Shown in pieces: positions 3 through 52,380 of a DNA stretch of 55,052 nucleotides. This DNA comes from a virus. Taxonomy: Duplodnaviria; Caudoviricetes. The stretch spans positions 1 through 55,052 of IMG/VR virus record IMGVR_UViG_3300044546_001769; one strand, written 5' to 3'. The notes below the pieces were generated by a model. The model saw only the letters and a program-made list of their open reading frames with translations. It was not told the DNA's origin and did no database searches. The position numbers and the translations under genes were made by a program. How positions within the stretch are numbered: the first letter of the stretch is position 1; each line of letters opens with the position of its first letter.

Positions 3-1211
3 CATGGACCACAGGGTGATGTTGGACCGCAGGGACCAACCGGCGAAACTGGAGTACAAGGTCCTGCAGGTCCACAAGGAGAAAAAGGTGATATAGGTCC
101 ACAAGGACTTCAGGGACCCGCAGGAGAAACAGGACCAACTGGACTTCAAGGTATTCAAGGCGAACAAGGTCCTCAAGGTATTCAAGGCGAACAAGGTCCA
201 GTAGGAGAAACTGGTGCCCAAGGACCTCAAGGTATTCAAGGTATCGAGGGTCCACGCGGATCTACTGGTGATGTTGGTCCGCAGGGTCCAGTAGGAGAAA
301 CTGGTGCTCAAGGACCTCAAGGACTTCAAGGTCCTGCTGGTGAACGGGGAGAACGTGGAGAAAAGGGAGAACGTGGAAATGACGGCGCCAATATTATATT
401 AAAAGGATTGGTTGCACTAATTGAAAATTTACCGCAGGACGCGAATCCAGGTGACGTGTATATTGTTCAAGAAAACAACGAAGGATATGTGTTAAATGAA
501 AACTCTCAATGGATTAATGTTGGTCCGTTAGTAGGGTCAAAAGGTGATGTTGGACCAGAAGGCGAACAGGGACCAGCCGGAGTAGATGGTTTACAAGGTC
601 CTGCAGGACCACAAGGTGTAATGGGTCCAACCGGTGAAACAGGTCCTGCTGGAGTAGAAGGTCCACAAGGACCACAGGGACCTGCCGGTGACATTGGACC
701 ACAGGGACCTGCCGGTGACATTGGACCACAGGGACCTGCCGGTGAAAAGGGTGAAAAGGGTGAAAAGGGTGATATTGGACCACAGGGACCTGCCGGCGAA
801 AAGGGTGAAAAGGGTGAAGCAGGACAACAAGGTATTCAAGGTATCGAGGGTCCACAAGGACTTCAAGGCGAACGTGGACCCGCTGGTATAGAAGGAGCCG
901 CCGGACCTCAGGGTATCCAAGGTGAACAAGGTCCAGCTGGTGATGTTGGACCAGCCGGTCCTCAAGGTATCCAAGGTGAAACTGGACCACAAGGAGAAAA
1001 AGGTGAACCTGGACCACAAGGTATCCAAGGCGAACAAGGACTAGCTGGAGAAACAGGACCAGCTGGTCCGCAAGGAGATGTTGGACCAGCTGGTCCTCAA
1101 GGATTGCAAGGAGAAAAAGGAGAACCTGGACCCGATACACAGACTGCGCTAAACGAAATACGTCAACAACTTGCTGATATTCAGGCGATTCTTAACACTA
1201 TTGTAGGTTAA
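3..1211 (+). CDS. Collagen-like (Gly-X-Y) tail fibre protein, 5' truncated by the window edge
   Basis: Frame is open from position 3 ([10 protein letters not shown]...). Long GXY runs are interrupted by a globular segment ([13 protein letters not shown]...WINVGPL), with a C-terminal coiled coil. The track start at 408 is internal. Confidence 0.9.
681..816 (+). repeat. DNA-level tandem duplications within the collagen gene
   Basis: 27-bp cctgccggtgacattggaccacaggga occurs twice in tandem (681-734), followed by 9-bp ggtgaaaag tandem units. Confidence 0.8.
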
Positions 1212-2682: not shown

Positions 2683-4500
2683 ATGATTTTAACCAATGTA
2701 CAACCATCGCCAAAAGACCCGCGGGATTACAAATATCCAACGGCTACACCAGCAACAACTTCTTCGCTGCCATTTTCAGTTGATCTACGTGAATTTGCGG
2801 GTGATATAGAACAACAAGGACAAACTGGTTCGTGTGTCGCAAATGCTGCAGTAAGTGCATTGGAAATATTATTAACACGACAAGGTCAATTTGAAAACTT
2901 GTCGCGACTATTTCATTATTGGAATCTACGTCAAGGTTATCCTGATCTTGCTGGTGTAGACAGTGGTTCTTATCCACGTGATGCATTTAAACTTGCAAAT
3001 CAAATTGGTATCTGCGATGAAATAACATGGCCTTTTGATGAATCAAAAGTAAATGTACAACCATCACAAGCTGCATTTGATGATGCGTCATCAGTTAAGG
3101 CTTTTGGATATTATTCTATTGCAATGGGATGGACACAAGAACACAGGGCAACATCGCTTCTTACAATTAAACAAGCAGTATCAAGCGGTTATCCTGTTTT
3201 GATTGCTGCTCATATAAACGCAGAATTTCAACAGATTTATTCAACTAATCTTGAAGGAACTCAATCACAGTTTGTTAATGCACAATTTCCAATTGGAGCA
3301 CACGCTGTCTTGGTTGTAGGTTATGCTGGAAATTCATTATTGATTGAAAACTCATGGGGTACAAGCTGGGGATGCAACGGCTATGCATTAATACCAGGTC
3401 TTGCATTAATGTTGGATACATTTGAAGCTTGGGTATGTACTGGCGTAAACGGAAATCAAATACCAAAACTTGCCAGCGCAACTCCGCTTGGCAATCCCCC
3501 AAAGTGGTGGCAAGTTGCACCTAATTTAACACCAGTTGCAGCTTGGGATGCCAAACGTGTTAATGGAGCTCAACTAATTGACGGTGTAGGTAATAACAAC
3601 ATAACAGCAACAAGTGAATTGATTAAAACAGACTTCCTATTTTTAGGTGTTGCTGGAAACAGTGACCCAATGACGTTATCGACACCTGTACCAATTCCTA
3701 GTGTAGGCGTTGTTGCTGGATTCTGGAGTCCAAAACGGCGAAACGTTCTGTTGTCAAAAGAATATGGTAACACCAGCAGTTATGCATTACATCTTTCAAG
3801 TGACGGCAATGGTTGGTATTCTAATAATGAAAGTTCTTATGAATATTACGGTCAATATGGTGAACTTGGAGAGCGTTATTTTGTTGCAATGGTAACACGT
3901 GGAGACGACTCAATTTTGTACGTTGACGGAAATTTAGTTGGCAACCCAATTAGCAGTAGCAGAACAATGAGTCATGTCGGGCTAATTGGTTATGCAACAA
4001 ATGGCAACGAGTTCAACCTTGACTCGGATGAATTTCTCCATGCTGTGGGCATTTGGTCTGGAGCGGCAACTCAAGATGATATTAAAGTAATTGAAGCAGC
4101 AGCTCGACTTGAATTAAAAGGTGCTAACATGACAAGTCGGGGCTTTGCAGCCCGAACAGGTCGAATGGAGTTCCCCATTCCTCAGCACCTTCTGCTTACG
4201 CCCGCACAACCACGATTCGTAGGTTCAACACTTACACGCCGTGATTACCAATTTGGTGGAAACGGACGAATCACGGGTACTGTAAAAGAAAAGGGCACGA
4301 CTGACCAACCGATACAACGGCGGGTGCAGCTGTATGACGAAACCAGCAAGGTAATGACCCGCGAGGCGTGGAGCAACCCTGTTACGGGCGCTTACCTTTT
4401 CGAAAACATCGACCCGTTGCTGACCTACACCATTATAAGTTATGACTACACAGGCGCGTACAAGGCTGTTGTAGCAAATGGTATAAAAGCGACAATATGA
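2683..4500 (+). CDS. Chimeric protein: papain-like C1A cysteine peptidase + LamG/ConA-like domain + C-terminal tail-cassette domain
   Basis: QQGQTGSCVANA (catalytic Cys), GAHAVLVVGY (His), ENSWGTSWG (Asn); LamG-like ILYVDG; C-terminal GNGRITGTVKEKG...RRVQLYDE...GAYLFENID. Confidence 0.85.
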   Translation: MILTNVQPSPKDPRDYKYPTATPATTSSLPFSVDLREFAGDIEQQGQTGSCVANAAVSALEILLTRQGQFENLSRLFHYWNLRQGYPDLAGVDSGSYPRDAFKLANQIGICDEITWPFDESKVNVQPSQAAFDDASSVKAFGYYSIAMGWTQEHRATSLLTIKQAVSSGYPVLIAAHINAEFQQIYSTNLEGTQSQFVNAQFPIGAHAVLVVGYAGNSLLIENSWGTSWGCNGYALIPGLALMLDTFEAWVCTGVNGNQIPKLASATPLGNPPKWWQVAPNLTPVAAWDAKRVNGAQLIDGVGNNNITATSELIKTDFLFLGVAGNSDPMTLSTPVPIPSVGVVAGFWSPKRRNVLLSKEYGNTSSYALHLSSDGNGWYSNNESSYEYYGQYGELGERYFVAMVTRGDDSILYVDGNLVGNPISSSRTMSHVGLIGYATNGNEFNLDSDEFLHAVGIWSGAATQDDIKVIEAAARLELKGANMTSRGFAARTGRMEFPIPQHLLLTPAQPRFVGSTLTRRDYQFGGNGRITGTVKEKGTTDQPIQRRVQLYDETSKVMTREAWSNPVTGAYLFENIDPLLTYTIISYDYTGAYKAVVANGIKATI

Positions 4501-12542: not shown

Positions 12543-12976
12543 AAGACGAACATATTCTAACACTGGTTGGATGGGTGGCATTTGTTATGACGTTGTTTTT
12601 TGGAACAATTGTATTTTATACATTTGACGGAACACCACCTTTTGAAATAAGCGACTCAGTTAGTAGCGTAACTAGAGAAGAAAATGGTAATTATGTACTA
12701 ACTGAAAGTCGCGGCTTTGTTGGGCATGATAGTCAAGTTCTTACGATATTTAGAACGTTGTATAAAAAGGAGGACGACAAGCACGTAAACAGCATTGAAG
12801 GCGGTTCTGTCATGAATCAAAATGATGATTATGTTGTTTTAAGAGCTATTCAAATTCCTCCACACTTGAATGGTTGGTGGTGTTCACGCGCTATTGTTTT
12901 TTGGAGACCGTCACTTTCACTTAAACAACACAGTTTAAATTTACCTGACCTTTGTTTTGAAATACCAAGAAAATGA
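12539..12976 (+). CDS. Membrane-anchored periplasmic protein
   Basis: N-terminal TM (LTLVGWVAFVMTLFFGTIVFY), beta-rich domain with two Cys; ATGA overlaps on both sides. Confidence 0.7.
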   Translation: MKDEHILTLVGWVAFVMTLFFGTIVFYTFDGTPPFEISDSVSSVTREENGNYVLTESRGFVGHDSQVLTIFRTLYKKEDDKHVNSIEGGSVMNQNDDYVVLRAIQIPPHLNGWWCSRAIVFWRPSLSLKQHSLNLPDLCFEIPRK

Positions 12977-13758
12977 AAAAAATATTTTTTGTATTAGTAT
13001 CATTGTTTATTTCTGTTTCTGTATTTGCACAATCTGCTAAAAAAATAAGAATAGTCACTGAAGACTTTCCTCCATTTCAAACATTACAAAATGGCGAAAT
13101 TGTTGGTCCAATGTACAGTGTAATGCAAGCAATTTGTAAAGAGGCAAAACTCTCGTGTAACATTGAATTGCTGGAATGGAAAGACGCATATAGACAAGCA
13201 CTAGATGGAAGTGCTGACGTTGTTTTCTCTATTTTATTGGAAGTGCCGGAGAGAGCTCAATTCTTTTACATGTCGCCGTCAATAGTAGATACAAGTTATT
13301 CATTGTTTGTTACAAGCCGAAACAAATGGAAATATACTGGATATGAATCACTTGAGGGCATGAAAATTGGAGCGTACGGTCCAAGTGGAACAAGTATTGT
13401 TGCTCAAGAATTAGTAAAAGGACGAGAAATTGCAGGCTTTTCTGTTGTTCCACTTACTATAGAACCAAGTATAGTCGAAAGTTTCCAGCAGCTGATTACT
13501 GGAAAGTATGGCGACAATGGAGCAGTCGTTGTCAATAAAGATGTTGGGCTAGCACTGTTGAAGAAACATTCTATTTTTGGACCCAAACCTGCCGGTGATA
13601 TTAAAAGCATAACGTACGGATTTGGTTTTTCTAAAAAGAGTCCAAATGCCGCAGAATTTCAAAAAATGGTAGACGCTCTTAGGCGTTTGCAAGATAATAA
13701 AACCATTGTTGAAACACTTCGCTGGCACGGCTTAAAAGCATCTCAACACAAAAGATAA
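12973..13758 (+). CDS. Periplasmic solute-binding protein, family 3 (amino-acid ABC type)
   Basis: Signal peptide ending VFA; IRIVTEDFPPF...G.ADVVFSI...ERAQFFYMSPSI...LEGMKIGAYGPSGT...YGFGFSKKS. Confidence 0.9.
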   Translation: MKKIFFVLVSLFISVSVFAQSAKKIRIVTEDFPPFQTLQNGEIVGPMYSVMQAICKEAKLSCNIELLEWKDAYRQALDGSADVVFSILLEVPERAQFFYMSPSIVDTSYSLFVTSRNKWKYTGYESLEGMKIGAYGPSGTSIVAQELVKGREIAGFSVVPLTIEPSIVESFQQLITGKYGDNGAVVVNKDVGLALLKKHSIFGPKPAGDIKSITYGFGFSKKSPNAAEFQKMVDALRRLQDNKTIVETLRWHGLKASQHKR

Positions 13759-32229: not shown

Positions 32230-32304
32230 ACGGGTGAAGCTTAATTGGATAAGCAGCTGGCTTCTACCCAGTCGATAGTGCAAGTTCGAATCTTGTCACC
32301 CGTA
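32230..32304 (+). tRNA. tRNA-Arg(UCU), no encoded CCA
   Basis: Acceptor ACGGGTG/CACCCGT, D-stem GCTT/AAGC, anticodon stem GCTGG/CCAGT with loop CT-TCT-AC, T arm GCAAG-TTCGAAT-CTTGT. Confidence 0.85.
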
Positions 32305-32336
32305 CACAGCAAATTCAAACACTTCTGTAAAATATC

Positions 32337-33002: not shown

Positions 33003-33662
33003 ATGAAAATCTCTAAAGAAACTACATCCATCCTGAAAACTTTGGCTGGTATTAATACTAACCTGCTATTAAAAGCTGGCTCTAAGCTTTCAACAATTTC
33101 GCCGCTAAAAACCGTCGTTGCAGAGGTATCTGTACAAGAAACATTTTCTACAGAATTTGGCATTTACGATCTCAACGAATTTCTTGGTGTTCTTAGTCTG
33201 TTCAGCGAACCAGAACTAACGTTTAGTGATAAACAAGTCAAGATCTCAGAGAACGGCGTTAGCATTAAATATTTTGGTGCAGATCCTGGAATTCTGACTG
33301 TTCCTCAAAAAGAACTTAAATTTCCAACACCTGACGTTGAATTTGATATTCCTACATCAGTTCTTGCAATGGCAATCAAAACAGCTAGTGTATTGCGCAG
33401 TCCTGACATCAGCTTTATTGGTGATGGTACGGCTGTTACACTGCAAATTCAAGATTTAAAGAATCCTTCAAGTAATAGTTTTGATTTGAAAGTCGGTGAA
33501 ACTGATCGCACTTTTTCATCAAACTTAAAGGTCGAAAATCTCAAGATGATGAGCGGAGATTATTCTGTTGCAATTTCGGGTAAACGCATTTCACGATTCA
33601 CCAATAAAACAAATGGCGCAGTTTTTTATATTGCGCTTGAATCAACATCTTCGATTGAATAA
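33003..33662 (+). CDS. gp45: Sliding clamp
   Basis: MKISKET..ILK...IN...EFGIYDLNEFLGVLSLF...FYIALE. Confidence 0.96.
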   Translation: MKISKETTSILKTLAGINTNLLLKAGSKLSTISPLKTVVAEVSVQETFSTEFGIYDLNEFLGVLSLFSEPELTFSDKQVKISENGVSIKYFGADPGILTVPQKELKFPTPDVEFDIPTSVLAMAIKTASVLRSPDISFIGDGTAVTLQIQDLKNPSSNSFDLKVGETDRTFSSNLKVENLKMMSGDYSVAISGKRISRFTNKTNGAVFYIALESTSSIE

Positions 33663-33735: not shown

Positions 33736-34677
33736 ATGTCCGAAGACTTAAATGCGATGGTATTCGCTGAGCATTATCGTCCTAAAACTATTGATGATTG
33801 TATTCTACCGTCTGCTACAAAGCAGATGATAAAGGATGCAGTAAGCAGCGGTTCTGTTCCACATTTTCTTTTTGCTGGAACCGCGGGCATAGGCAAGACC
33901 AGTTTGGCTAGAGCAATTTGTAATGAATTAAATGCTGATTTGCTCTACGTCAATGCTTCACTTGAGACAAGTATTGATGTAATTAGAACTAAAATTATTG
34001 GATTTTCTTCATCAGTTTCTTTGTCCGACAGCTTTAAAATTATTCTACTCGATGAGGCAGAGGGGCTGAGTCCACAAGCGTCAAATTCTCTTAAAGCTAT
34101 CTTTGAGGAATTTCCAAACGTCCGATACATTCTGACGACAAACAATCTTGCAAAGGTCATTGATCCAATAAAGAGCAGATGTGTTGTAATTGATTTTAAG
34201 ATTGATGCATCAGAAAAACCAGCTCTGGCTCTGCAAATGTTTAAACGAGTAAGCCTTATTTTAAAAGAGCGCGATATTGAATTTGATAAAAAAGTTGTTG
34301 CTGATGTAGTCAATAGGTTTTTTCCAGATTTTCGTAGAACACTTAATGAGATTCAGCGTTATTCGACTGGTGGTAAAATTGACAGCGGAATTCTATTAAG
34401 TCATAGCAAGACAAGTTATCGCGACTTGATTAAAATTCTAGCTGAAAAAGATTTTAAAGGTATGCGTCAGTGGGTTGGTGAAAATGCCGATTCTGATCCA
34501 GCAGTTCTTTTTAAAGATTTTTATGATAATGCATATGAATATTTTGAACCACAAACTATTCCAAATGTAATCTTATTGCTGTCCGATTATCAGTTTAAAG
34601 CAATTCATGCAGTTGATCCAAGTATTAATTTGGCAGCTTTTCTTGTTGAAATAATGATGCAGGTGAAATTTAAATGA
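33736..34677 (+). CDS. gp44: Clamp loader large subunit
   Basis: EHYRPKTIDDCILP, GTAGIGKT, LLDEAE, SRC, FPDFRR. Confidence 0.96.
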   Translation: MSEDLNAMVFAEHYRPKTIDDCILPSATKQMIKDAVSSGSVPHFLFAGTAGIGKTSLARAICNELNADLLYVNASLETSIDVIRTKIIGFSSSVSLSDSFKIILLDEAEGLSPQASNSLKAIFEEFPNVRYILTTNNLAKVIDPIKSRCVVIDFKIDASEKPALALQMFKRVSLILKERDIEFDKKVVADVVNRFFPDFRRTLNEIQRYSTGGKIDSGILLSHSKTSYRDLIKILAEKDFKGMRQWVGENADSDPAVLFKDFYDNAYEYFEPQTIPNVILLLSDYQFKAIHAVDPSINLAAFLVEIMMQVKFK

Positions 34678-35378: not shown

Positions 35379-35825
35379 ATGAACGGAAATATTGCTCTTC
35401 CAACTGATACATATAATTGGACAATTGATTCTATTCTTGAAATCAAATTGCCAAATCCTGATGCGTTTTTAAAAATACGTGAAACATTAACACGTATTGG
35501 AGTTGCTTCAAAACAAGAAAAAACTCTTTGGCAGTCCGTACATATTTTACACAAGCGTGGAAATTATTATCTACTCCATTTTAAAGAATTTTTTGGTATT
35601 GATAATAGGGATGCTTATATTACTGTAGAAGATATATGCAGACGTAATACTATTGCAAAATTACTAGAGCAATGGGGTCTTTGTACAATTGTTACAAAAG
35701 AAACATTAATGACAACAAACATGAACAATATTAAGATTGTTCCGTACAAAGAAAAAGGTGATTGGCAGCTAAAGGCAAAATATACTATGAGAAGCCAGCG
35801 TCAATCAGAACAGCATAGCAATTAA
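35379..35825 (+). CDS. regA: Translational repressor RegA
   Basis: PDAFLKIRETLTRIGVAS...LWQSVHILHKRG.YYLLHFKEFF...RRNTIAKLLEQWGL. Confidence 0.96.
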   Translation: MNGNIALPTDTYNWTIDSILEIKLPNPDAFLKIRETLTRIGVASKQEKTLWQSVHILHKRGNYYLLHFKEFFGIDNRDAYITVEDICRRNTIAKLLEQWGLCTIVTKETLMTTNMNNIKIVPYKEKGDWQLKAKYTMRSQRQSEQHSN

Positions 35826-35953: not shown

Positions 35954-36065
35954 GACTGCAGCATTTGCTGGGTCAAACTGAATTTCCAGGCGGTCTGGAA
36001 ATAACAAGGTGCTTTTTGGCCTTGTTTTAATTTTGTGTCGAAAGAGCAAATAGGAGCTTTAAATG
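35954..36065 (+). ncRNA. Structured 5' leader of hsp20 (candidate RNA thermometer)
   Basis: Four consecutive hairpins, including atttccag/ctggaaat and aacaagg/ccttgtt, ending at SD aggag. Confidence 0.55.
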
Positions 36066-36467
36066 AGTTATATTCTTGATCAAATCTATCGCGATTTTTT
36101 TAATGTTGGCGGTAATATAAAGGATGGGTTTCCATTCTACAATCTTGTAAAAAAAGACGAAAAAACATTTGAAATTCGTCTTGCATTGGCTGGTTACAAT
36201 ATGTCTAACATCGAGGTATTGGTTGATGGAGAGCATCTTGTTATTTCTAGTGCAGGTATTGACGAACGTTCAGAAACATTTGTTCATAAAGGCTATACAG
36301 GAAAACCGTTTGTAAAAAAATTCATTTTGAATTCTGAAGCTGAAGTAAAAGGCGCAGATTTTCAAGACGGTGTTTTGACTGTTTTTGTAGAACGTATTGT
36401 ACCAGAAAAAAACAAAGTACGACAAATTAAAATTAACGGTTTAAAACCTGAAATTCTTAACGGATAA
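36063..36467 (+). CDS. hsp20: Small heat shock protein (Hsp20/IbpA family)
   Basis: FPFYNLVK...EIRLALAGY...FVHKG...F..KFIL...VKGADFQDGVLTVFVERIVPE. Confidence 0.93.
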   Translation: MSYILDQIYRDFFNVGGNIKDGFPFYNLVKKDEKTFEIRLALAGYNMSNIEVLVDGEHLVISSAGIDERSETFVHKGYTGKPFVKKFILNSEAEVKGADFQDGVLTVFVERIVPEKNKVRQIKINGLKPEILNG

Positions 36468-36470
36468 ATT

Positions 36471-36686
36471 ATGACAACAATCGAACGCCTGGCAGTATTT
36501 CCTTTTATCGATTTGGGCGACTGGATATTCAGGTGTTCGATATCCAACAAAACAAATATTATGATATTAGCATTCTGCAAAGATACAAGTATCAAGAACA
36601 GAATGCTCTTGCGATTTTTTTCAGATGCCGAAATAGCAAATGCATGGGTTGAAGAATGCAATGCTGGCAAACACATCGAAGATTAA
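36471..36686 (+). CDS. Hypothetical protein
   Basis: 71 aa ORF directly after hsp20. Confidence 0.65.
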   Translation: MTTIERLAVFPFIDLGDWIFRCSISNKTNIMILAFCKDTSIKNRMLLRFFSDAEIANAWVEECNAGKHIED

Positions 36687-36687
36687 T

Positions 36688-36716
36688 TTTACTTTTATTG
36701 TTTCTTGTGTTATAAT
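36688..36716 (+). promoter_or_regulatory. Pre-replicative promoter (repeated motif)
   Basis: TTTACT-N17-TATAAT with TGTGT. Confidence 0.8.
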
Positions 36717-36747
36717 TACTCTATCGTAATTAATAACGGAATTGCAA

Positions 36748-37032
36748 ATGAACTTCCAAAAAATCGAGTGGACCTTAGAAAAAATCGTATCTAACAACGG
36801 ACATGTTTGGATGTACGAGCTTTCGAAAGAAGTACAGTCGTTGGTTGGTAGAAATGTGGCGACTGTTAGTGGTCCACCACCCGAATATGGGAATACTGTA
36901 CCAACAGAGAATAATTCCAAAACTGGTATAATAGAGTTGGTAGAATACAGGAATTCGGAAACATATTTCCTTGTACGTCGCTCAAATGGACAAGCTGATT
37001 GGCGTGCTTCTTACAACACATATTTGGTTTAA
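36748..37032 (+). CDS. Hypothetical protein
   Basis: ATG start after promoter. Confidence 0.65.
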   Translation: MNFQKIEWTLEKIVSNNGHVWMYELSKEVQSLVGRNVATVSGPPPEYGNTVPTENNSKTGIIELVEYRNSETYFLVRRSNGQADWRASYNTYLV

Positions 37033-37062
37033 TAACCAAACGTCAAAAGTTAGAGAACAATT

Positions 37063-37150
37063 GCGGCGTTAACTCAGCTGGCCGAGAGTAGCAGACTCAT
37101 AATCTGCCGGAGTAATCCCACCGTTGGTTCAAATCCAACACGCCGCACCA
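37063..37150 (+). tRNA. tRNA with CAU anticodon (Met or Ile2) and long variable arm
   Basis: Acceptor GCGGCGT/ACGCCGC-A-CCA, D-stem ACTC/GAGT, GCAGA-CTCATAA-TCTGC, 15-nt variable region with GGA-GTAA-TCC, GTTGG-TTCAAAT-CCAAC. Confidence 0.9.
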
Positions 37151-37158
37151 AAAATTAA

Positions 37159-37187
37159 TTTACTTTTATTCCATTCTAGTGTATAAT
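37159..37187 (+). promoter_or_regulatory. Pre-replicative promoter (repeated motif) followed by ttatcg-caa-cgataa hairpin and SD
   Basis: TTTACT-N17-TATAAT. Confidence 0.8.
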
Positions 37188-37214
37188 AGTTTATCGCAAC
37201 GATAAGGATTTGTT

Positions 37215-37799
37215 ATGTTTTGTTTGGACATCGAAACAGTCGGATTAGAATCAAATTCGGCTGTGCTAAGTTTAGCTATGGCTTATTATGATCCATCAAC
37301 TAAAATCGATTATAAAAAGATTCTTTCTGAAACATTTTTTGTAAAATTTGATCTGAATATTCAATTAAAAGAGTTTGGTCGTACATACACTCAAAGCTCA
37401 TTAGATTGGTGGCGTAAACAATCTGAAGCAGCAAAAATATGTAGTCTGATTCCGTCTGATGAAGATGTTCATCCAAAGCAAGGAATTGCCGATTTGCGAA
37501 AATGGTTTAATGGTTTTCCAGATGCAAAAAAGCAGCTTGTTTGGGTTCGTGGATCTCTTGATCAGCCTGTTGTTGAATCTCTTTTTCGTTCACTTGACGA
37601 AGAACCGCTAGTAATGTACAATGCATGGCGCGATGTTCGAACAGCACTAGATTGCTTTTATCCAAATTCAACGAATGGATATGTCGAAGTAGATCCAGCA
37701 AAATGTTTGAATTATGATCATTATGCTGTTGTAAAACACGATCCACGTCATGATGTTGTTTTTGACTTGTGCCAACTATTTGCAGGAAAAAGTGAATGA
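37215..37799 (+). CDS. dexA: 3'-5' exonuclease DexA-like
   Basis: LDIETVG, DWWRKQS, WVRGSLD, WRDVRTA, KHDPRHDVVFD. Confidence 0.88.
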   Translation: MFCLDIETVGLESNSAVLSLAMAYYDPSTKIDYKKILSETFFVKFDLNIQLKEFGRTYTQSSLDWWRKQSEAAKICSLIPSDEDVHPKQGIADLRKWFNGFPDAKKQLVWVRGSLDQPVVESLFRSLDEEPLVMYNAWRDVRTALDCFYPNSTNGYVEVDPAKCLNYDHYAVVKHDPRHDVVFDLCQLFAGKSE

Positions 37800-40306
37800 A
37801 ATTTTATACAAACGTAGCAATAATGGGATCTGACGTTCTCGTCAGAGAAATAGTTGACGGAATTCCATCCTTGCGTAAAGACCGTTGGTTCCCAGCAATC
37901 TACGTCAAGGGTCAACCTAAAGATCCGCAAGCATTGTCTGTAAAAACACTGTACGGTGATGATGCATATGAGATGCTTCCTGGTTCTATTCGCGAAACAA
38001 AAGATTTTGTAGAGCAGTACAAAGGTGTTTCTGGTTTTGACATTTACGGACAGTTGAATTATTCATTGCAGTATATGAATCGATATCAGTGTACTGGTTG
38101 GGATTATAAAAAAATCTCAGCATGGTCAATTGACATTGAAACCGCTGTACCAGTAGATGAATCAGGCAAGACATATTTTCCAGATCCAGAAAATGCAGAT
38201 GGAGAGATCCTGCTTATTACACTGTGCAATATGCACAGTGGTCAGTGCTTTACTTGGGGCACAAAGGAATATTCTGGTAAAGATACACATTATACGCTCT
38301 GCGCATCAGAATCACAACTAATACGACTCTTTCTAGAATTTTGGCAGCAGCGACGTCCTGATATTATTACTGGCTGGAACATTTGTGGGTTTGACTTGCC
38401 GTACATTATTAACCGTGCAACACGTATAATTGGAGCTGAATCGATTCAAAAGCTGTCTCCATGGGGCAAAGCTGGTACAAAATCAAAACAGTTTAACGGT
38501 CAAACTGAATGGGATACTCAAATTCTTGGTGTATCTATTCTTGATTATATTGATCTCTACAAAAAATACATTTTCACAAAGCAGGAAAGCTATTCACTAG
38601 GTCATATTGCTCAAGAGGAATTAGGTCATTCTAAAGTTGATCATTCTGAATATGGATCGTTTACGGACTTTTATTCAAAAGCCTGGCCAAAGTTCGTTTT
38701 CTACAACATAATTGATACACTGCTGGTAAAACAGCTAGACGATAAGTTAAAGTTAATTGAATTGGTTTTGACAATTGCATATGAGGCAAAAATCAATTAT
38801 GAGGACGTTGCTTCTCCAGTAAAAACATGGGATGCTATTATAAGCAACTATTGTCTGCAGCAAGGAATTGTTTTACCGCAGCAACGTCGTGAACTTCAAT
38901 CACCACTTGATGGCGCGTATGTTAAAGAACCTAAACCTGGATGGTATAAGAATGTTGTAAGTTTGGACGCTACGTCACTTTATCCAAGTATTATTATGAC
39001 TAACAACATTTCTCCAGAAACATATGTTGGTAAAATTGAAGATTTGGACATTGAAAGTTTTCTAAAGAAACCACAATTAGACGCGTCTGATTCAGTTTGC
39101 ATTACACCTGTTGGTGCAATGTACAGCAAATCTCAACGTGGAATTCTTCCTGTTTTAGTAGAGCATTTTATGACTTCTCGTAAACAGGCAAAAACTGAAA
39201 TGCTACGATTAGAGCAAGAAATAGAAAATACGTCTGATGAAGCATTAAAGAATCAACTCGATCAACGTCGTTCTGCATTTGATAATAAGCAGATGGCAAT
39301 AAAAACGTTGTTAAATTCGCTCTACGGAGCCACGGCAAATCAATATTTTCGATTCTTTAAATGGGAACATGCAGCATCTATTACCCTAACTGGTCAGTTC
39401 GTATTGAGAACTATTGAAAAATTAATTGACGCTGAACTAAATCAGCTGTTTAAAACTGGTTCAGAAAAGTACTTGGTTTATATTGACACGGACTCCCTTT
39501 ATTTTTCGCTTGAACCAGTTATTAAAAAATTCAATATAGATGACAGCAATGCCATTAAAACAATGGAAAGACTTGCAAAGGATAAAATTACTCCAATCGT
39601 TAATAAAATCTGTACAGAATGTTGTGATTACATGCAGTCGTATCAGAATAAGCTCAGCTTTAAACTTGAAGTTGCAGCAAGCAAAGCAGTGTTTTTGGCA
39701 AAAAAGAAGTATGTTCTCAAGGTATTTTCGTCAGAAGGCGTTTCATATACAAAACCAAAATTCAAGGCAAAAGGTCTTGAAATGGTTCGGTCATCAACTC
39801 CACGATATGTACGTGATAAGTTGAAACTTGCATTGGACGTTATATTTGACACAGATGAAAAAGGTGTTCAACAATTTATTAAATCCGTAAAGGATGAATT
39901 CCTTGTGCTGCCTCATGAACAGGTTGCTTTTCCACGTGGCGCTAATAATCTTGCAGAATACTCACACAGTCAGACAATTTATGACAAATCCAAAAGTGTA
40001 CCAATTCAAGTTCGCGCCGCACTTCTTTATAATCACTATCTGAAAAAACACGACGTTGATGGGCAGTATCCGTCTATTGGTGAAGGCGATAAGTTAAAAT
40101 TCATGTACCTAAAGGTGCCTAATAAAATTCGTGAGAATGTTATTGCATTTCCTGCTGATGGCAAGTTGCCCCAAGAATTTGGACTAGAACAGTACATTGA
40201 TTATGAACTGCAATTTGAAAAAACTTTTCTTTCAGCTATGCAATTAATTCTTACATCTATTGGTTGGAAGGCAGAAGAAATTTCAGATCTTTCTGAATTC
40301 TTTTAA
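37796..40306 (+). CDS. gp43: Family B DNA polymerase
   Basis: Exonuclease DIET and GWN..GFD; polymerase DATSLYPS, KTLLNSLYG, YIDTDS; C-terminal clamp-binding LSEFF. Confidence 0.97.
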   Translation: MKFYTNVAIMGSDVLVREIVDGIPSLRKDRWFPAIYVKGQPKDPQALSVKTLYGDDAYEMLPGSIRETKDFVEQYKGVSGFDIYGQLNYSLQYMNRYQCTGWDYKKISAWSIDIETAVPVDESGKTYFPDPENADGEILLITLCNMHSGQCFTWGTKEYSGKDTHYTLCASESQLIRLFLEFWQQRRPDIITGWNICGFDLPYIINRATRIIGAESIQKLSPWGKAGTKSKQFNGQTEWDTQILGVSILDYIDLYKKYIFTKQESYSLGHIAQEELGHSKVDHSEYGSFTDFYSKAWPKFVFYNIIDTLLVKQLDDKLKLIELVLTIAYEAKINYEDVASPVKTWDAIISNYCLQQGIVLPQQRRELQSPLDGAYVKEPKPGWYKNVVSLDATSLYPSIIMTNNISPETYVGKIEDLDIESFLKKPQLDASDSVCITPVGAMYSKSQRGILPVLVEHFMTSRKQAKTEMLRLEQEIENTSDEALKNQLDQRRSAFDNKQMAIKTLLNSLYGATANQYFRFFKWEHAASITLTGQFVLRTIEKLIDAELNQLFKTGSEKYLVYIDTDSLYFSLEPVIKKFNIDDSNAIKTMERLAKDKITPIVNKICTECCDYMQSYQNKLSFKLEVAASKAVFLAKKKYVLKVFSSEGVSYTKPKFKAKGLEMVRSSTPRYVRDKLKLALDVIFDTDEKGVQQFIKSVKDEFLVLPHEQVAFPRGANNLAEYSHSQTIYDKSKSVPIQVRAALLYNHYLKKHDVDGQYPSIGEGDKLKFMYLKVPNKIRENVIAFPADGKLPQEFGLEQYIDYELQFEKTFLSAMQLILTSIGWKAEEISDLSEFF

Positions 40307-44201: not shown

Positions 44202-46460
44202 ATGTTAAGAGCCTTTATTTTAGCACTAATGTTGTGCGGCTCTGCTCACGCTTTACCGATATCGGTAAACAACAACTTTACTTCCAAGTCAATTGGCGGC
44301 GTTGTAGAGGTCTTTGAAGACAAATCGGGTGAAATTGAGATAGCTGACGTTTTAAGCAGTTCTCACATTCAAAACCAATTTGCTAGCATGCATAGTGAAA
44401 CGCCTAACTTTGGCTATACAGACAGCAGTTTTTGGGCACGTATCAACCTGAACGATTCTCGCAAGAGCGCGTTCTCAGCTTATGCAGAACCACTATACTT
44501 AAAGTACGGGTATGCACAGACTGACTACGTTGCTATCTGGTGCTATAACGACTTTAAATCAGAAGTCATGCACCAAAAAGCGGGAGATCATGTGCCTCGT
44601 GCTGAGTGGTCTAGTAGCTATAGAGAGCCGGTATTTGTTATTCCTAGCGATGCCAGAGTTTGTTACCTCAACGTCAAGACGACTTCTGCAGTTCAGCTCT
44701 CCCTCGTACTCTATTCAGAAAAAGAGTTCAATAAGTTCTTTGTTTTAGATAGTGCGCTGCAAGCAATGTACTTTGGCGCACTGCTAATCTCTGCCGCATA
44801 CAACCTGCTGATAGCTTTCTCATTACGCTCTAAAGCATACTTTGCCTACACCGTATTTTTACTGACGTACGGTACTTTTCAGATTTCCTACAACGGCTAT
44901 GGCTATGCCTTATTTTGGACTGACATGATTGGTTTTGCGGACAAGATTCTACCTTTTATGATTCTGACGATTGGCGTAACTTCATGTACTTTCACTTCGC
45001 TGCTCTTGAATCTGAAAAAAGAGTCACCACGATTTCATAGGCTAGGCTTTGCCTTGATGATAATAATTGGAACTCTTGCAGTAATAACACTGTTTGCCGA
45101 TTACAAGATAGCTCTAATGTCCACTTTTATATACAGTCCGGTTTGGGCTTTCTTCCTGCTGGGTTCTGGCTGTTACTTGGCTTACAAAGGTATGCGCGTA
45201 GCTAAGATTTACCTAATGGGTTGGTGGATGTTTGTCATCGGGACTATGGTTATTATTTGTAGTCGAATAGGCTACCTACCAGTAAATGACATAACCACTA
45301 ATGCAACGCAGATAGCTACAGTGCTTGAGTTTTTGCTATTTTCCTTTGCGCTTTCAGATCGTATCAATACAACTCAAAGTGACCTAATCAAAGCTCAAAA
45401 GAAGATTGCAGAAAATCTTAAAGCGTCAGAGCAAGAGCTTGAAACCAAGGTTGAGCAACGCACCAAAGAGCTATCAGATACCCTTGAAGAATTGCAGTCC
45501 ACGCAAACACAACTCGTCCAAGCTGAGAAGTTGGCGTCGCTAGGCTTGCTGGTGAGTAACGTAGCCCATGAACTTAATTCACCTATTGCTTCTATCATGT
45601 CAAGCGGAGATTCTATTGCATCGTCGGTCAATGAGATGGTAGATAACTTGCCTGAGATTATTCGACAGTTAGAAGGTGGTGACAGGGAATTGTTCTTTGA
45701 CTTGATAATGCACCCTAAAGTGCAACGTGACTTTGTGCCAAAAGAGGAACGACAACAAACACGCGAGGTTACTGCAAAGCTCAACGAACGCGGTATTGAT
45801 GGTGCAATGCGCAAAGCCCGTCTGCTAGTGCGACTAGGTGTGTACAAGGAGGTTGATAAGTTTATGCCATTACTCCAATCCAAGGACAGCGATTTTGCTC
45901 TGAACGTAGCAGCGGGGATTGGAGATGTTTTAAGTGGTACACACAACATCAACTCCGCGGTTGAACGTGTAAACCGCATCATCTTTGCGCTCAAAGAACT
46001 TGCAGGCACGGAGCGTGTCATGGCAATGGAAACAACCTACCTTCACGTAACGATAGAAAAGGCGCTGAACTCGTACCGACACCTGATGAAAGACGTTAAG
46101 GTAGTTTTCAATCACGCGCCAATAGAAGCTATACAGTGCGACCCCGAAGCCATGCAGCAAGTGTGGACACATTTAATCATCAATGCACTTCATGCCATGA
46201 AGTACAAAGGTACGTTAGCAATTGACCTATCATGTATAGACAACCAAGCAAGAGTGTCTGTAAAGGACGAAGGTACCGGCATAGGACTTGACGTGCAAGC
46301 AAAGATGTTTGATGCTTTCTACACAACGAAAACATCAGGCGAAGGTGGTGGAATGGGACTGGCGATTGTTAAGAAAGTTGTAGAGCAGCACCGAGGACGC
46401 ATACAGGTGACTTCTGAAATTGGCGTTGGTACAACCTTTGTTGTCTTTTTACCTTTATGA
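44202..46460 (+). CDS. Sensor histidine kinase with 7TMR-DISM extracellular and 7TM domains
   Basis: PNFGYTDSSFW (DISMED2), ~7 TM helices, H-box VAHELNSP, N-box QVWTHLIINA, G1 DEGTGI, F-box FDAFYTTK, G2 GGGMGLAIV. Confidence 0.92.
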   Translation: MLRAFILALMLCGSAHALPISVNNNFTSKSIGGVVEVFEDKSGEIEIADVLSSSHIQNQFASMHSETPNFGYTDSSFWARINLNDSRKSAFSAYAEPLYLKYGYAQTDYVAIWCYNDFKSEVMHQKAGDHVPRAEWSSSYREPVFVIPSDARVCYLNVKTTSAVQLSLVLYSEKEFNKFFVLDSALQAMYFGALLISAAYNLLIAFSLRSKAYFAYTVFLLTYGTFQISYNGYGYALFWTDMIGFADKILPFMILTIGVTSCTFTSLLLNLKKESPRFHRLGFALMIIIGTLAVITLFADYKIALMSTFIYSPVWAFFLLGSGCYLAYKGMRVAKIYLMGWWMFVIGTMVIICSRIGYLPVNDITTNATQIATVLEFLLFSFALSDRINTTQSDLIKAQKKIAENLKASEQELETKVEQRTKELSDTLEELQSTQTQLVQAEKLASLGLLVSNVAHELNSPIASIMSSGDSIASSVNEMVDNLPEIIRQLEGGDRELFFDLIMHPKVQRDFVPKEERQQTREVTAKLNERGIDGAMRKARLLVRLGVYKEVDKFMPLLQSKDSDFALNVAAGIGDVLSGTHNINSAVERVNRIIFALKELAGTERVMAMETTYLHVTIEKALNSYRHLMKDVKVVFNHAPIEAIQCDPEAMQQVWTHLIINALHAMKYKGTLAIDLSCIDNQARVSVKDEGTGIGLDVQAKMFDAFYTTKTSGEGGGMGLAIVKKVVEQHRGRIQVTSEIGVGTTFVVFLPL

Positions 46461-47066: not shown

Positions 47067-47095
47067 TTTACTTTTAATGGTTTTTATTGTATAAT
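47067..47095 (+). promoter_or_regulatory. Pre-replicative promoter (repeated motif)
   Basis: TTTACT-N17-TATAAT. Confidence 0.8.
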
Positions 47096-47115: not shown

Positions 47116-47346
47116 ATGAGCATCGATTTGCCAAATATGAGTACTAAAGAGATCATTTTATTAAATAAAATATGGTCGTGCGATTCACTAGATGAATTTA
47201 AAACTTGGAAAGAGAGTTTATGTGAATCTGACCAGCTTCTTGCAAATGATCTGCTTTTTGCACTCTCTGCAGAAATAGAACTTCAAGAAGAACAATCGTA
47301 CAGTGAAGCTCAACAACTAATAGAAAAAATAAAAAGGAAGATATGA
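47116..47346 (+). CDS. Hypothetical protein
   Basis: SD aagga; LLNKIWSCDS..EF..WK.SL. Confidence 0.7.
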   Translation: MSIDLPNMSTKEIILLNKIWSCDSLDEFKTWKESLCESDQLLANDLLFALSAEIELQEEQSYSEAQQLIEKIKRKI

Positions 47347-47999
47347 AAAATCAAAAAGGTTTTACACTAGTAGAAATAGCCATCGTAATGGTCATTATTG
47401 GCTTGCTCTTGGGCGGTGTTCTAAAGGGTCAGGAAATGATTGAAAATGCGCGGGTAAAAGATACAGTGAATGTTATGAAAGGTGTTCAGACTGCGTATAA
47501 TGCATATCAAGACCGATTTAAAGCAATTCCCGGTGATGAAACTGCTACTGTCATGACAAATCGTGGTTGGGCTGGTAACACTGGTCCGGGTGTTTCAAAC
47601 GGTTCGTTGGCAATTCCACTCGCACAAACATTTACTAATGGCGGTGATCAAGCGGGTTTTTGGCGCGCTCTGCGTGCTAGTGGCTTTATGACTGGCGATC
47701 CAGCTGCTCCAGCAACAGCTGCAGGTTTGCCTACTTTGAGCACCGGTGGCTTGGTTGGAATCAATTCTGGTCCATCATATGGATTGCCTGGTCCTGTTGT
47801 ATGTGCTAGTGGTCTTTCGACAAAGCAAGTTGCTGCTATGGATCTAATGATTGACGGAACAGGTGCTGCAAACAATACTGGTTCATTTAGAGCAGCTACA
47901 GGCGCAGCAACTCCGCTTGTTCCTGTTGCAGTAGCACCAGCTGCAACATTCTATTCTGACAACGTTCTCACTAAATGGACTGCTTGTATTACTATCTAA
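47343..47999 (+). CDS. Type IV pilin/pseudopilin-like protein with prepilin N-terminal methylation site
   Basis: MKNQKG|FTLVEIAIVMVIIGLLLGGVLKGQEMIENAR; AYQDRFKAIPGD; D.MIDG; C-terminal Cys pair. Confidence 0.92.
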   Translation: MKNQKGFTLVEIAIVMVIIGLLLGGVLKGQEMIENARVKDTVNVMKGVQTAYNAYQDRFKAIPGDETATVMTNRGWAGNTGPGVSNGSLAIPLAQTFTNGGDQAGFWRALRASGFMTGDPAAPATAAGLPTLSTGGLVGINSGPSYGLPGPVVCASGLSTKQVAAMDLMIDGTGAANNTGSFRAATGAATPLVPVAVAPAATFYSDNVLTKWTACITI

Positions 48000-52351: not shown

Positions 52352-52380
52352 TTTACTTTTAATAAAATATGTAGTATAAT
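52352..52380 (+). promoter_or_regulatory. Pre-replicative promoter (repeated motif)
   Basis: TTTACT-N17-TATAAT. Confidence 0.8.

What the first reader, a model, noticed from the sequence alone, without database searches (positions are those of the whole stretch)
37063..37150. CAU-anticodon tRNA built on a tRNA-Tyr-like class II body
Seen: 88 nt, CCA encoded, with a 15-nt variable arm. The segment AGCAGACT-CAT-AATCTGCCG equals E. coli tRNA-Tyr (AGCAGACT-GTA-AATCTGCCG, from memory) except at the anticodon, and it has GGCC in the D-loop, G1-C72 and A73. Known: bacterial long V-arms are confined to Leu/Ser/Tyr/Sec, while Met and Ile2 tRNAs are class I. Inference: an anticodon-switched tRNA that could be a nuclease-resistant Met/Ile2 tRNA, a mis-decoding tRNA (another amino acid at AUG/AUA), or a decoy for tRNA-targeting defences.
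Basis: partly seen in the sequence, partly recalled or inferred. Interest (0 to 1): 0.8.

Follow-up and report, generated by a model that had tools for sequence, protein, structure and literature searches.

The report
Phage CAU tRNA with extra arm
A freshwater T4-like phage carries a real 88-base transfer RNA with a methionine-type CAU anticodon and an extra hairpin arm; it belongs to a widespread but little-noticed family of such tRNAs in phages and Burkholderia-type bacteria that most likely read the rare isoleucine codon AUA.

Summary
Window 37063-37150 (+) is an 88-nt tRNA with anticodon CAU, encoded CCA and a 15-nt variable arm. A contig from a run of another study is identical across it.

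The "anticodon-switched tRNA-Tyr" reading does not hold. The stem shared with E. coli tRNA-Tyr also occurs in 63 ordinary 73-77-nt CAU tRNAs and in Trp and Phe tRNAs. Outside that stem the body is closest to class I CAU tRNAs.

The gene belongs to a family of CAU tRNAs with a 3-bp variable stem, usually GNRA-capped. I found 58 in viral contigs and 64 in bacterial genomes, mostly Burkholderiaceae. A family model built without the window scores it 82.1 bits.

In one Ralstonia genome the long-arm tRNA is the only tRNA-Ile2 candidate among 51 tRNAs. Sister genomes hold the same tRNA without the 10-nt hairpin.

Best reading, about 0.6: a phage AUA-decoding tRNA-Ile2 that depends on host TilS and sits beside tRNA-Arg(UCU). 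Elongator Met is the main rival. Ten literature searches found no description of this class.

The parts
37063..37150 (+). 88-nt tRNA(CAU) with a long variable arm and encoded CCA
   Evidence: ARAGORN; Rfam tRNA 58.1 bits; family model R1 82.1 bits over model positions 1-88 without indels
37098..37100 (+). anticodon CAT inside the loop CTCATAA (37096-37102)
   Evidence: identical in the run X2 contig covering 36933-37181 and in L034
37108..37122 (+). 15-nt variable region: stem 37109-37111 with 37116-37118, GUAA loop 37112-37115, then CACC
   Evidence: RNAfold. In the family the three pairs are paired in 45 of 45 unique sequences with 4, 4 and 3 pair types. L034 has GAAA in place of GUAA.
37072..37089 (+). 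D arm: 4-bp stem ACTC/GAGT and 10-nt loop AGCTGGCCGA (class I-like stem)
   Evidence: The same D-loop string occurs in the long-arm tRNA-Lys(CUU) of phage XacN1. Only 3 of 45 family members have C13-G22 and U8-A14.
37063..37069 (+). acceptor stem 5' strand, pairing with 37140-37146; A73 at 37147; CCA at 37148-37150
   Evidence: L034 keeps the helix through G3-C70 to A3-U70 and has G1-U72.
36688..36716 (+). promoter-like site TTTACT-17-TATAAT, upstream of ORF 36748-37032 and the tRNA
   Evidence: 5 such sites in the window against 1.03 expected. A consensus match only.
37159..37187 (+). second promoter-like site just after the tRNA, ahead of the exonuclease gene 37215-37799
32230..32305 (+). 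companion phage tRNA-Arg(UCU), which reads AGA
   Evidence: UCU is the second commonest co-resident anticodon of long-arm CAU tRNAs, in 16 of 44 loci.

Best explanation
The gene encodes a functional, phage-borne member of a family of CAU-anticodon tRNAs. These carry a 10-nt hairpin (a 3-bp stem with a 4-nt, mostly GNRA, loop) inserted in the variable loop of an otherwise Ile2/Met-like tRNA.

Most likely it is a tRNA-Ile2. Host TilS would convert C34 to lysidine, IleRS would charge it, and it would read AUA. AUA is common in this 36%-GC phage. Together with the phage tRNA-Arg(UCU) it would supply A-ending codons that a host may decode poorly.

Shown: the tRNA is real, it belongs to the family, the extra arm is conserved with covariation, and bacterial counterparts exist. 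Inferred: lysidine formation, isoleucine charging, and any special role of the hairpin.
For: (1) Real tRNA.

(2) Family membership. Model R1 was built from 43 unique 88-nt long-arm CAU tRNAs, without the window or L034. It scores the window 82.1 bits and L034 81.9 bits. In 100 viral loci the 41 best hits score 72.5-113.6 bits and the next scores 63.3. Ralstonia Leu(CAA) scores 64.2, Tyr 54.5 and elongator Met 39.4.

(3) Conserved architecture in 45 unique 88-nt members:
- each variable-stem pair is paired in 45 of 45, with 4, 4 and 3 pair types
- the loop is GNRA in 38 of 45
- A73 and CCA are present in 45 of 45
- the 15-48 pair is G-C in 27 and A-U in 18

(4) Isoleucine assignment.
- A Ralstonia genome has 51 tRNAs. 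Its CAU tRNAs are 2 initiators, 1 initiator-like tRNA, 1 class I tRNA with A73, G2:C71 and C3:G70 (the Met set quoted in PMC8629427), and the long-arm tRNA.
- That genome has no UAU tRNA and no group I intron, and it holds a TilS-like gene.
- Five sister genomes have a 77-nt class I CAU tRNA with the same acceptor and T arms, lacking exactly the 10-nt hairpin.
- C3:G70 occurs in 0 of 45 family members, and the window has C2:G71 and G3:C70.
- L175 carries a near-identical paralogue with anticodon AAU.

(5) Company in viral loci. Of 44 loci that hold other tRNAs, Leu(UAA) is present in 21 and Arg(UCU) in 16. L121 has an initiator-like tRNA, a Met-like class I CAU tRNA and Ile(GAU) besides the long-arm CAU tRNA.

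(6) Codon use. The window has AUA at 19.4 per 1000 codons (316 of 16,259; 26% of Ile codons) and AGA at 9.8 per 1000.
Against: No charging or modification data exist for any family member.

The window tRNA is an atypical member. It has U8-A14 and a 4-bp D stem (3 of 45) and G4-C69 where most have C4-G69. It lacks the E. coli minor Ile determinants C4-G69 and C29-G41 listed in PMC9976931.

A CAU anticodon alone suffices for E. coli MetRS, so without TilS action the tRNA would be a Met tRNA.

In 11 of 44 viral loci a long-arm CAU tRNA sits with a UAU tRNA, which would make two AUA readers. In L090 and L124 it sits with a class I CAU tRNA that has the same CUCAUAA loop.

The Ralstonia argument is by elimination, in one draft genome. 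The host of this phage is unknown, and only 31% of the phage is in hand.
Confidence: 0.6

Rival explanations
1. It is an elongator tRNA-Met. C34 stays unmodified by TilS, MetRS charges it through the CAU anticodon, and it reads AUG. The extra arm would be neutral or protective.
For: The CAU anticodon is sufficient for E. coli MetRS (PMC9976931 passages). ARAGORN labels it Met by anticodon. Long-arm CAU tRNAs co-occur with UAU (AUA-reading) tRNAs in 11 of 44 loci, which would fit a Met plus Ile pair. The window tRNA lacks C4-G69 and C29-G41.
Against: The window has C2:G71 and G3:C70 instead of the G2:C71 and C3:G70 Met set. In Ralstonia a separate class I tRNA carries that set, leaving the long-arm tRNA as the only Ile2 candidate. 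L175 has an AAU-anticodon paralogue. The usual company is Arg(UCU) and Leu(UAA). AUG supply is not usually limiting (inference).
Confidence: 0.2
2. It is a mis-decoding tRNA. A class II-type body is charged by LeuRS or TyrRS, which read the anticodon little (Leu) or partly (Tyr), so that Leu or Tyr is inserted at AUG or AUA, as nematode nev-tRNAs do with Leu.
For: It has a long variable arm, A73 and G1-C72. The anticodon stem is identical to that of E. coli tRNA-Tyr. In alphaproteobacterial loci L247 and L269 a long-arm CAU tRNA resembles the neighbouring tRNA-Tyr in its acceptor and T arms. nev-tRNA-Ile(UAU) is leucylated in vitro (PMC3333845 abstract and passages).
Against: Tyr identity needs U35, and this tRNA has A35. 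The D arm is class I-like with G15-C48. Identity is 57 of 88 to Tyr and 54 of 88 to Leu(CAA), against 67 of 77 to a class I CAU tRNA. Model R1 separates the family from Leu, Ser and Tyr tRNAs. A chromosomal single-copy orthologue in Burkholderiaceae that would have to mis-decode is implausible.
Confidence: 0.05
3. The extra arm is a counter-defence feature. The tRNA still decodes AUA or AUG, but the hairpin makes it a poor substrate for host tRNA-targeting nucleases or modifiers, or it serves as a decoy for them.
For: The same hairpin type sits on phage tRNA-Lys(CUU or UUU) in phiCbK and XacN1. tRNA-Lys is a known nuclease target (titles and abstracts in the listing, such as PMC12409363 and PMC1950546). 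Many phage arrays hold long-arm versions of normally class I tRNAs.
Against: The same arm is chromosomal in bacteria, so it is not phage-specific. No defence or anti-defence gene was identified next to the tRNA.
Confidence: 0.1
4. It is not a working tRNA: a pseudogene, an integration-site remnant or a chance fold.
For: 3' halves of the Burkholderiaceae long-arm tRNA occur as isolated copies in viral contigs and bacterial genomes (L099, L139, L156, L169, L185, L193, L196, L266, L267). This shows the gene serves as an integration site elsewhere.
Against: The gene is full length and all helices are intact. It matches the family model over positions 1-88. L034 shows a compensatory change and loop variation from GUAA to GAAA. 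The context is a lytic T4-like replication module.
Confidence: 0.03

Closest known systems
Bacterial tRNA-Ile2 (anticodon CAU, lysidine at position 34 made by TilS), also carried by phages
   Same: CUCAUAA anticodon loop, A73 and a 7/5 cloverleaf. It sits with tRNA-Arg(UCU) in an AT-rich phage that uses AUA often. A bacterial family member is the only Ile2 candidate in a Ralstonia genome.
   Different: It carries a 10-nt hairpin in the variable loop. The window copy lacks the E. coli minor determinants C4-G69 and C29-G41. Lysidine formation is untested.
Bacterial class II tRNA-Tyr
   Same: A variable arm with a 3-bp stem, A73 and G1-C72. The anticodon stem GCAGA/UCUGC is identical to that of E. 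coli tRNA-Tyr.
   Different: The anticodon is CAU, with A35 instead of the identity base U35. The D stem has 4 bp. Only 57 of 88 positions are identical. The family model gives Tyr tRNAs 46.5-54.5 bits against 82.1 for the window.
Nematode nev-tRNAs (PMC3333845): class II tRNAs with Gly or Ile anticodons that are charged with Leu
   Same: A long variable arm on a tRNA whose anticodon belongs to a class I family. Rare codons, including AUA, are involved.
   Different: nev-tRNAs derive from tRNA-Leu and are eukaryotic. Here the body is class I CAU-like and has bacterial chromosomal orthologues with and without the hairpin.
allo-tRNAs (PMC5389517): 8/4 or 9/3 Ser-type tRNAs with diverse anticodons in bacteria and phages
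   Same: Irregular long-arm tRNAs with unexpected anticodons, also found in phages.
   Different: The window tRNA has the canonical 7/5 acceptor/T arrangement and A73.
Long-arm tRNA-Lys of Caulobacter phage phiCbK and Xanthomonas phage XacN1 (GenBank annotation)
   Same: The same hairpin type: CAGCGAAAGCUCAUC, 3 bp plus GAAA. XacN1 shares the D-loop string AGCUGGCCGA. They score 76.2 and 69.1 bits with the CAU-family model.
   Different: Their anticodons are CUU or UUU. They are annotated simply as tRNA-Lys.

Membership tests
tRNA (Rfam RF00005), canonical 7/5 cloverleaf | Score above the gathering threshold; 7-bp acceptor stem, 5-bp T stem, G18G19, U33, T loop TTCRANY | tested here: met
   58.1 bits against a threshold of 29; structure
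   82.1 bits over positions 1-88 with no indel, from a model built without it. The family band is 72.5-114 bits and the next class scores <= 64.2.
   The window has U8-A14 and C13-G22, like only 3 of 45 unique members. It is a subclass, together with L034 and L130/L157.
tRNA-Ile2 (lysidine-dependent AUA decoder) | Genomic anticodon CAU with A37 and A38, plus A73 | tested here: met
tRNA-Ile2 (lysidine-dependent AUA decoder) | E. coli minor Ile determinants C4-G69 and C29-G41 (PMC9976931) | tested here: not met
   The window has G4-C69 and A29-U41. These rules come from E. coli and may not hold in the unknown host.
tRNA-Ile2 (lysidine-dependent AUA decoder) | Substrate of TilS and IleRS | not testable with these tools
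   Indirect support only: elimination in the Ralstonia genome, a TilS-like gene there, and none in the window.
Elongator tRNA-Met | CAU anticodon and A73 | tested here: met
Elongator tRNA-Met | G2:C71 and C3:G70 in the acceptor stem (as quoted in PMC8629427) | tested here: not met
   The window has C2:G71 and G3:C70. C3:G70 occurs in 0 of 45 family members.
Bacterial tRNA-Tyr | Anticodon with U35 (GUA) | tested here: not met
   The anticodon is CAU, so position 35 is A. The identity rule is from the passages.
Bacterial tRNA-Tyr | A73, G1-C72, long variable arm | tested here: met
Bacterial tRNA-Tyr | Overall body likeness to tRNA-Tyr outside the anticodon stem | tested here: not met
   Against E. 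coli Tyr, 16 of 28 (5' part) and 19 of 28 (3' part) are identical. Against class I CAU tRNA L023 the figures are 21 and 24. No blastn match in E. coli genomes.
allo-tRNA | 8/4 or 9/3 acceptor/T-stem arrangement | tested here: not met
   7/5 arrangement
Leu-charged class II mis-decoder (nev-tRNA-like) | Derivation from tRNA-Leu and leucylation | tested here: inconclusive
   54 of 88 identical to Ralstonia Leu(CAA). Leu tRNAs score <= 64.2 bits with R1. Charging is not testable here.

The most novel reading that the evidence does not exclude
A small GNRA-capped hairpin in the variable loop is a transferable add-on module. It has been installed repeatedly on A-starting-codon decoders: Ile2 CAU, Ile UAU/AAU, and Lys CUU/UUU. 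It occurs in phages and in some bacteria.

Its job would be to change who can touch the tRNA. One version: it blocks MetRS from mischarging the not-yet-lysidinylated CAU tRNA, or aids TilS or IleRS. Another version: it shields the tRNA from anticodon nucleases of host defence. Phages would then spread it horizontally.

This would add a fifth and sixth amino-acid family to bacterial class II tRNAs, and a new layer to the phage-host conflict over tRNAs.
Probability: 0.2. Interest if true: 0.8.

Novelty: new variant of a known kind. Interest (0 to 1): 0.55.

Why it matters
Reviews state that in bacteria long variable arms belong only to Leu, Ser and Tyr tRNAs (PMC4033280 and PMC3333845 passages). 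Sec is my addition from memory.

Here a conserved, covarying extra arm sits on CAU tRNAs. One of them is the only Ile2 candidate in a Ralstonia genome. Such tRNAs are also in dozens of phage contigs, and related long-arm tRNA-Lys genes are in two cultured phages.

If the arm affects the choice between TilS, IleRS and MetRS, or affects nuclease attack, it bears on how the AUA/AUG boundary is kept. It would also bear on phage tRNA counter-defence. Natural pairs with and without the hairpin exist, so the question can be tested directly.

For annotation, these genes are labelled Met by anticodon-only tools and should probably read Ile2.

Tried and rejected
- **Close relatives of the locus.** Megablast of 36000-38500 against GenBank phages found nothing. 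blastn of the tRNA there gave only 71-77% hits to class I tRNA-Lys genes and one 29-nt match.
- **Synteny.** Nine viral loci with a homologue of the downstream exonuclease (38-51% identity) hold no tRNA. The gene is therefore not a fixed feature of this phage group.
- **Specific patterns.** Two further patterns in viral contigs found only L034. The anticodon-free pattern found only class I Trp and Phe tRNAs in metagenome contigs and nothing in genome contigs.
- **Flanking similarity.** L034 shares no protein similarity with the window, nor do 14 other tRNA-bearing loci.
- **E. coli ground truth for Ile2 versus Met.** This was uninformative. The 77-nt class I orthologue best matches tRNA-Lys (72.7%), and the Ralstonia Met-like tRNA best matches plasmid tRNA-Thr.
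- **Rfam minus-strand hit.** Plastid-ycf2 scored 22.3 bits against a threshold of 65.7, so I treat it as chance.
- **Terminators.** None was found near the tRNA.
- **Integration-site reading.** Rejected for the window, because the tRNA is full length and sits in a replication module.
- **Host identity.** Not pursued beyond the habitat labels of the runs (lake and freshwater metagenomes). Only runs X2-X5 were laid.
- **Literature.** Ten searches gave no paper describing long-arm CAU, Ile2 or Lys tRNAs in bacteria or phages. I read passages only, of PMC5389517, PMC8629427, PMC8450103, PMC1635315, PMC3333845, PMC4033280 and PMC9976931.
- **Supplements.** The tRNA lists of PMC1635315 and Supplementary File S5 of PMC8450103 may hold the Burkholderia and Ralstonia Ile2 genes.

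Full report
**What is there.** The window is a 55,052-base IMG/VR virus record, judged 31% complete.

Around the finding lies a T4-type replication module on the + strand:
- gp45-like clamp (33003-33662)
- gp44-like clamp loader (33736-34677)
- RegA (35379-35825)
- Hsp20 (36063-36467)
- two small ORFs, then the tRNA
- an Rv2179c-like 3'-5' exonuclease (37215-37799)
- family B DNA polymerase (37796-40306)
- UvsX and a DnaB-like helicase

The polymerase is at most 42% identical to those of Synechococcus phages, so this is a distant T4-like phage. Contigs identical to parts of 36700-37500 occur in lake-water and freshwater metagenome runs of four other studies.

ARAGORN finds two tRNAs: Arg(UCU) at 32230-32305 and a CAU tRNA at 37063-37150. 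Rfam tRNA scores them 55.9 and 58.1 bits.

The CAU tRNA folds as a cloverleaf with an extra 3-bp hairpin (-29.4 kcal/mol; z -3.51; 0 of 200 shuffles as stable). The remembered E. coli tRNA-Tyr segment is confirmed on an annotated E. coli gene.

**Not an artefact.** A contig of run X2 covers 36933-37181 without a difference. An 88-nt copy in an otherwise unrelated viral contig (L034:4500-4587, 92% identical) keeps CAU. It also keeps every helix, through G3-C70 to A3-U70, G1-U72, and GUAA to GAAA in the variable loop.

**Is it a tRNA-Tyr body?** No.

The 17-mer that spans the anticodon stem-loop occurs in 74 viral loci. In 64 of them it lies in a called tRNA: 63 are ordinary 73-77-nt CAU tRNAs and one is L034. 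The anticodon-free version of the stem occurs in class I Trp and Phe tRNAs. The match to tRNA-Tyr is therefore a generic stem.

The D arm has a 4-bp stem with U8-A14 and G15-C48.

| Compared with the window tRNA | Whole length identical | First 28 nt | Last 28 nt |
|---|---|---|---|
| E. coli tRNA-Tyr | 57 | 16 | 19 |
| Ralstonia tRNA-Tyr | 57 | 14 | 23 |
| Class I CAU tRNA L023 (77 nt) | 67 | 21 | 24 |

These figures are. blastn of the tRNA finds nothing in 5,426 E. coli genomes at E <= 10.

**A family.** I scanned with a generic pattern: the CAU loop with its flanking A-U pair, a gap long enough to force a long variable region, then the T loop.

It found 103 viral loci. ARAGORN calls a tRNA over the motif in 64 of them. 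Of these, 58 are CAU tRNAs of 84-93 nt (34 are exactly 88 nt). The other six are 95-97-nt calls with other anticodons.

It gave 64 long-arm CAU tRNAs, 55 of them 88 nt. Nearly all are stand-alone genes in Paraburkholderia, Burkholderia, Cupriavidus, Ralstonia and Trinickia. A few lie in alphaproteobacterial, Bacteroidales and Chamaesiphon assemblies.

Some viral hits are identical to the bacterial gene. Isolated 3' halves also occur. Part of the viral count therefore reflects prophage borders or attachment sites. Many others sit inside phage tRNA arrays.

The 45 unique 88-nt sequences break down as 20 viral only, 20 bacterial only, 4 found in both, and the window. Their shared features:
- the three variable-stem pairs are paired in 45 of 45, with 4, 4 and 3 pair types
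- the loop is GNRA in 38 of 45
- the base after the stem is always C
- A73 and CCA are invariant
- the tertiary pairs covary: 15-48 is G-C in 27 and A-U in 18; 8-14 is A-U in 42 and U-A in 3

On 43 sequences, 99.3% of cells pair against 82.9% in shuffles. Nineteen pairs show double changes, and 0 of 500 shuffles reach any of the five measures.

A covariance model of those 43, built without the window and L034, gave these scores:

| tRNA | Bits |
|---|---|
| Window CAU tRNA | 82.1 |
| L034 | 81.9 |
| Window tRNA-Arg | 35.1 |
| 41 best hits in 100 viral loci | 72.5-113.6 |
| Next hit in those loci | 63.3 |
| Ralstonia Leu(CAA) | 64.2 |
| Ralstonia Ser(CGA) | 56.6 |
| Ralstonia Tyr | 54.5 |
| Ralstonia Ile(GAU) | 46.6 |
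| Ralstonia Met-like class I tRNA | 39.4 |

The window tRNA is a member, but of a minority form. Three of 45 have U8-A14 and a 4-bp D stem: the window, L034 and the L130/L157 sequence.

**Which amino acid?** This step is inferred.

In one Ralstonia genome (G001) the Rfam model and ARAGORN both find 51 tRNAs. Five have CAU:
- two identical initiators
- one initiator-like tRNA
- one class I tRNA with A73, G2:C71 and C3:G70, the methionine set quoted in PMC8629427
- the 88-nt long-arm tRNA

There is one Ile(GAU), no UAU tRNA, no group I intron and a TilS-like gene (181.9 bits). By elimination the long-arm tRNA is the AUA decoder.

In a sample of 101 genomes of the same family, 12 hold the 88-nt gene at 111 bits or more. 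Five hold a 77-nt class I CAU tRNA at 70-73 bits. That shorter tRNA has the same acceptor stem and T arm and lacks exactly the ten hairpin bases. The long-arm form is thus a class I CAU tRNA with a hairpin inserted.

Further points:
- C3:G70 is absent from all 45 family members, and the window has C2:G71 and G3:C70.
- One phage locus (L175) has a near-identical paralogue with the isoleucine anticodon AAU, scoring 80.8 bits.
- In 44 viral loci with other tRNAs, the commonest companions are Leu(UAA) in 21 and Arg(UCU) in 16. In the 25 small clusters the counts are 11 and 9.
- The window itself pairs the CAU tRNA with Arg(UCU). It uses AUA at 19.4 per 1000 codons and AGA at 9.8 per 1000.

**Against this reading.**
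- UAU tRNAs co-occur with the long-arm CAU tRNA in 11 of 44 loci.
- Two loci (L090, L124) have a class I CAU tRNA with the same loop.
- The window copy lacks C4-G69 and C29-G41.
- CAU alone suffices for E. coli MetRS. The outcome therefore hinges on TilS of an unknown host.
- The window encodes no TilS-like protein.

**What the hairpin does** is unknown. Class I synthetases such as IleRS, MetRS and LeuRS are generally described as approaching tRNA with the variable region facing away from them. I recall this and did not test it. If so, the arm need not disturb charging. Its strict conservation suggests a role. I list the ideas of a MetRS anti-determinant, a TilS or IleRS aid, and a nuclease shield as the novel case.

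**Comparison with what is known.** Reviews state that the variable arm is specific to Ser, Leu and bacterial Tyr tRNAs, with nematode nev-tRNAs as the exception. allo-tRNAs differ by their 8/4 or 9/3 stems. The tRNAscan-SE 2 paper mentions group I introns in the Ile2 genes of some Burkholderia and Acidovorax, but no long arm, in the passages I read. Silva et al. 2006 do not mention one in the main text. Ten searches found no description. Subscription journals and supplements were not visible.

**Verdict.** The Tyr-derivation and the assumption that Ile2 and Met tRNAs are confined to class I are refuted. The gene is one member of a widespread, apparently undescribed variant of CAU tRNAs, most likely tRNA-Ile2. 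Interest is moderate. The single gene is ordinary within its family, but the family contradicts a textbook rule and offers natural hairpin-plus and hairpin-minus pairs for experiment.

Noticed in passing
L191:1469-1555 and 1562-1652 (Caulobacter phage phiCbK); L192:1469-1557 (Xanthomonas phage XacN1): Cultured phages carry 87-91-nt tRNA-Lys(CUU or UUU) genes with the same 3-bp plus GAAA variable hairpin as the CAU family. They are annotated simply as tRNA-Lys. In phiCbK no class I tRNA-Lys is annotated in the tRNA cluster region I fetched (record positions 46000-58000).
   Followed up: partly
L116, L125, L126, L144, L154, L160, L180 (viral contigs): tRNAs of 91-95 nt with anticodon UAU and long variable regions sit beside long-arm CAU tRNAs. 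This is a second kind of long-arm putative AUA reader. Their anticodon stems look irregular.
   Followed up: no
L175:3704-3791 and 3810-3897: Tandem near-identical 88-nt long-arm tRNAs, one with CAU and one with AAU. The AAU copy has a T-stem mismatch.
   Followed up: partly
L099, L139, L156, L169, L185 (viral); L193, L196, L266, L267 (bacterial): Isolated 3' halves, from the anticodon loop to CCA, of the Burkholderiaceae long-arm CAU tRNA. They look like attachment-site copies of integrating elements that target this gene.
   Followed up: no
L093, L098, L102, L109, L129, L132, L158, L168, L176, L186: A recurrent tRNA-like element in viral contigs with a CUCAUAA loop, T arm and acceptor-like ends. 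ARAGORN does not call it, and it seems to lack a normal D arm.
   Followed up: no
L236:3949-5532 (Niabella hibiscisoli); also L240, L257, L297: Tandem arrays (8 copies in L236) of a unit with a CAU-type loop, a long perfect hairpin and a T arm with an acceptor 3' end, in Chitinophagaceae and Dyadobacter genomes.
   Followed up: no
L034:1771-1861: The contig that shares the window's tRNA also has a 91-nt long-arm tRNA with anticodon CUA, a possible amber suppressor.
   Followed up: no
window 44202-46460 and 47343-47999: The T4-like phage encodes a 752-aa 7TMR-DISM sensor histidine kinase and a protein with a type IV pilin N-methylation motif. Both lie in a stretch of higher GC, 0.41-0.43.
   Followed up: no
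window 621-1211, 2683-4500, 12973-13758: A collagen-repeat protein, a papain-family protease with a weak lectin-like region, and a family 3 solute-binding protein in the structural half of the fragment.
   Followed up: no
window 36688-36716, 37159-37187, 47067-47095, 52352-52380: Four exact copies of TTTACT-17-TATAAT that share the longer start TTTACTTTTAWT. They are probably this phage's early promoters. A similar 34-43-nt stretch occurs in L034:7239-7279.
   Followed up: partly
L092, L115, L162, L166 (viral tRNA arrays): Other normally class I tRNAs are called at 82-94 nt: Val UAC, Cys GCA, Glu UUC, Trp CCA, Gln UUG, Lys UUU. I did not check whether these are long arms or introns.
   Followed up: no
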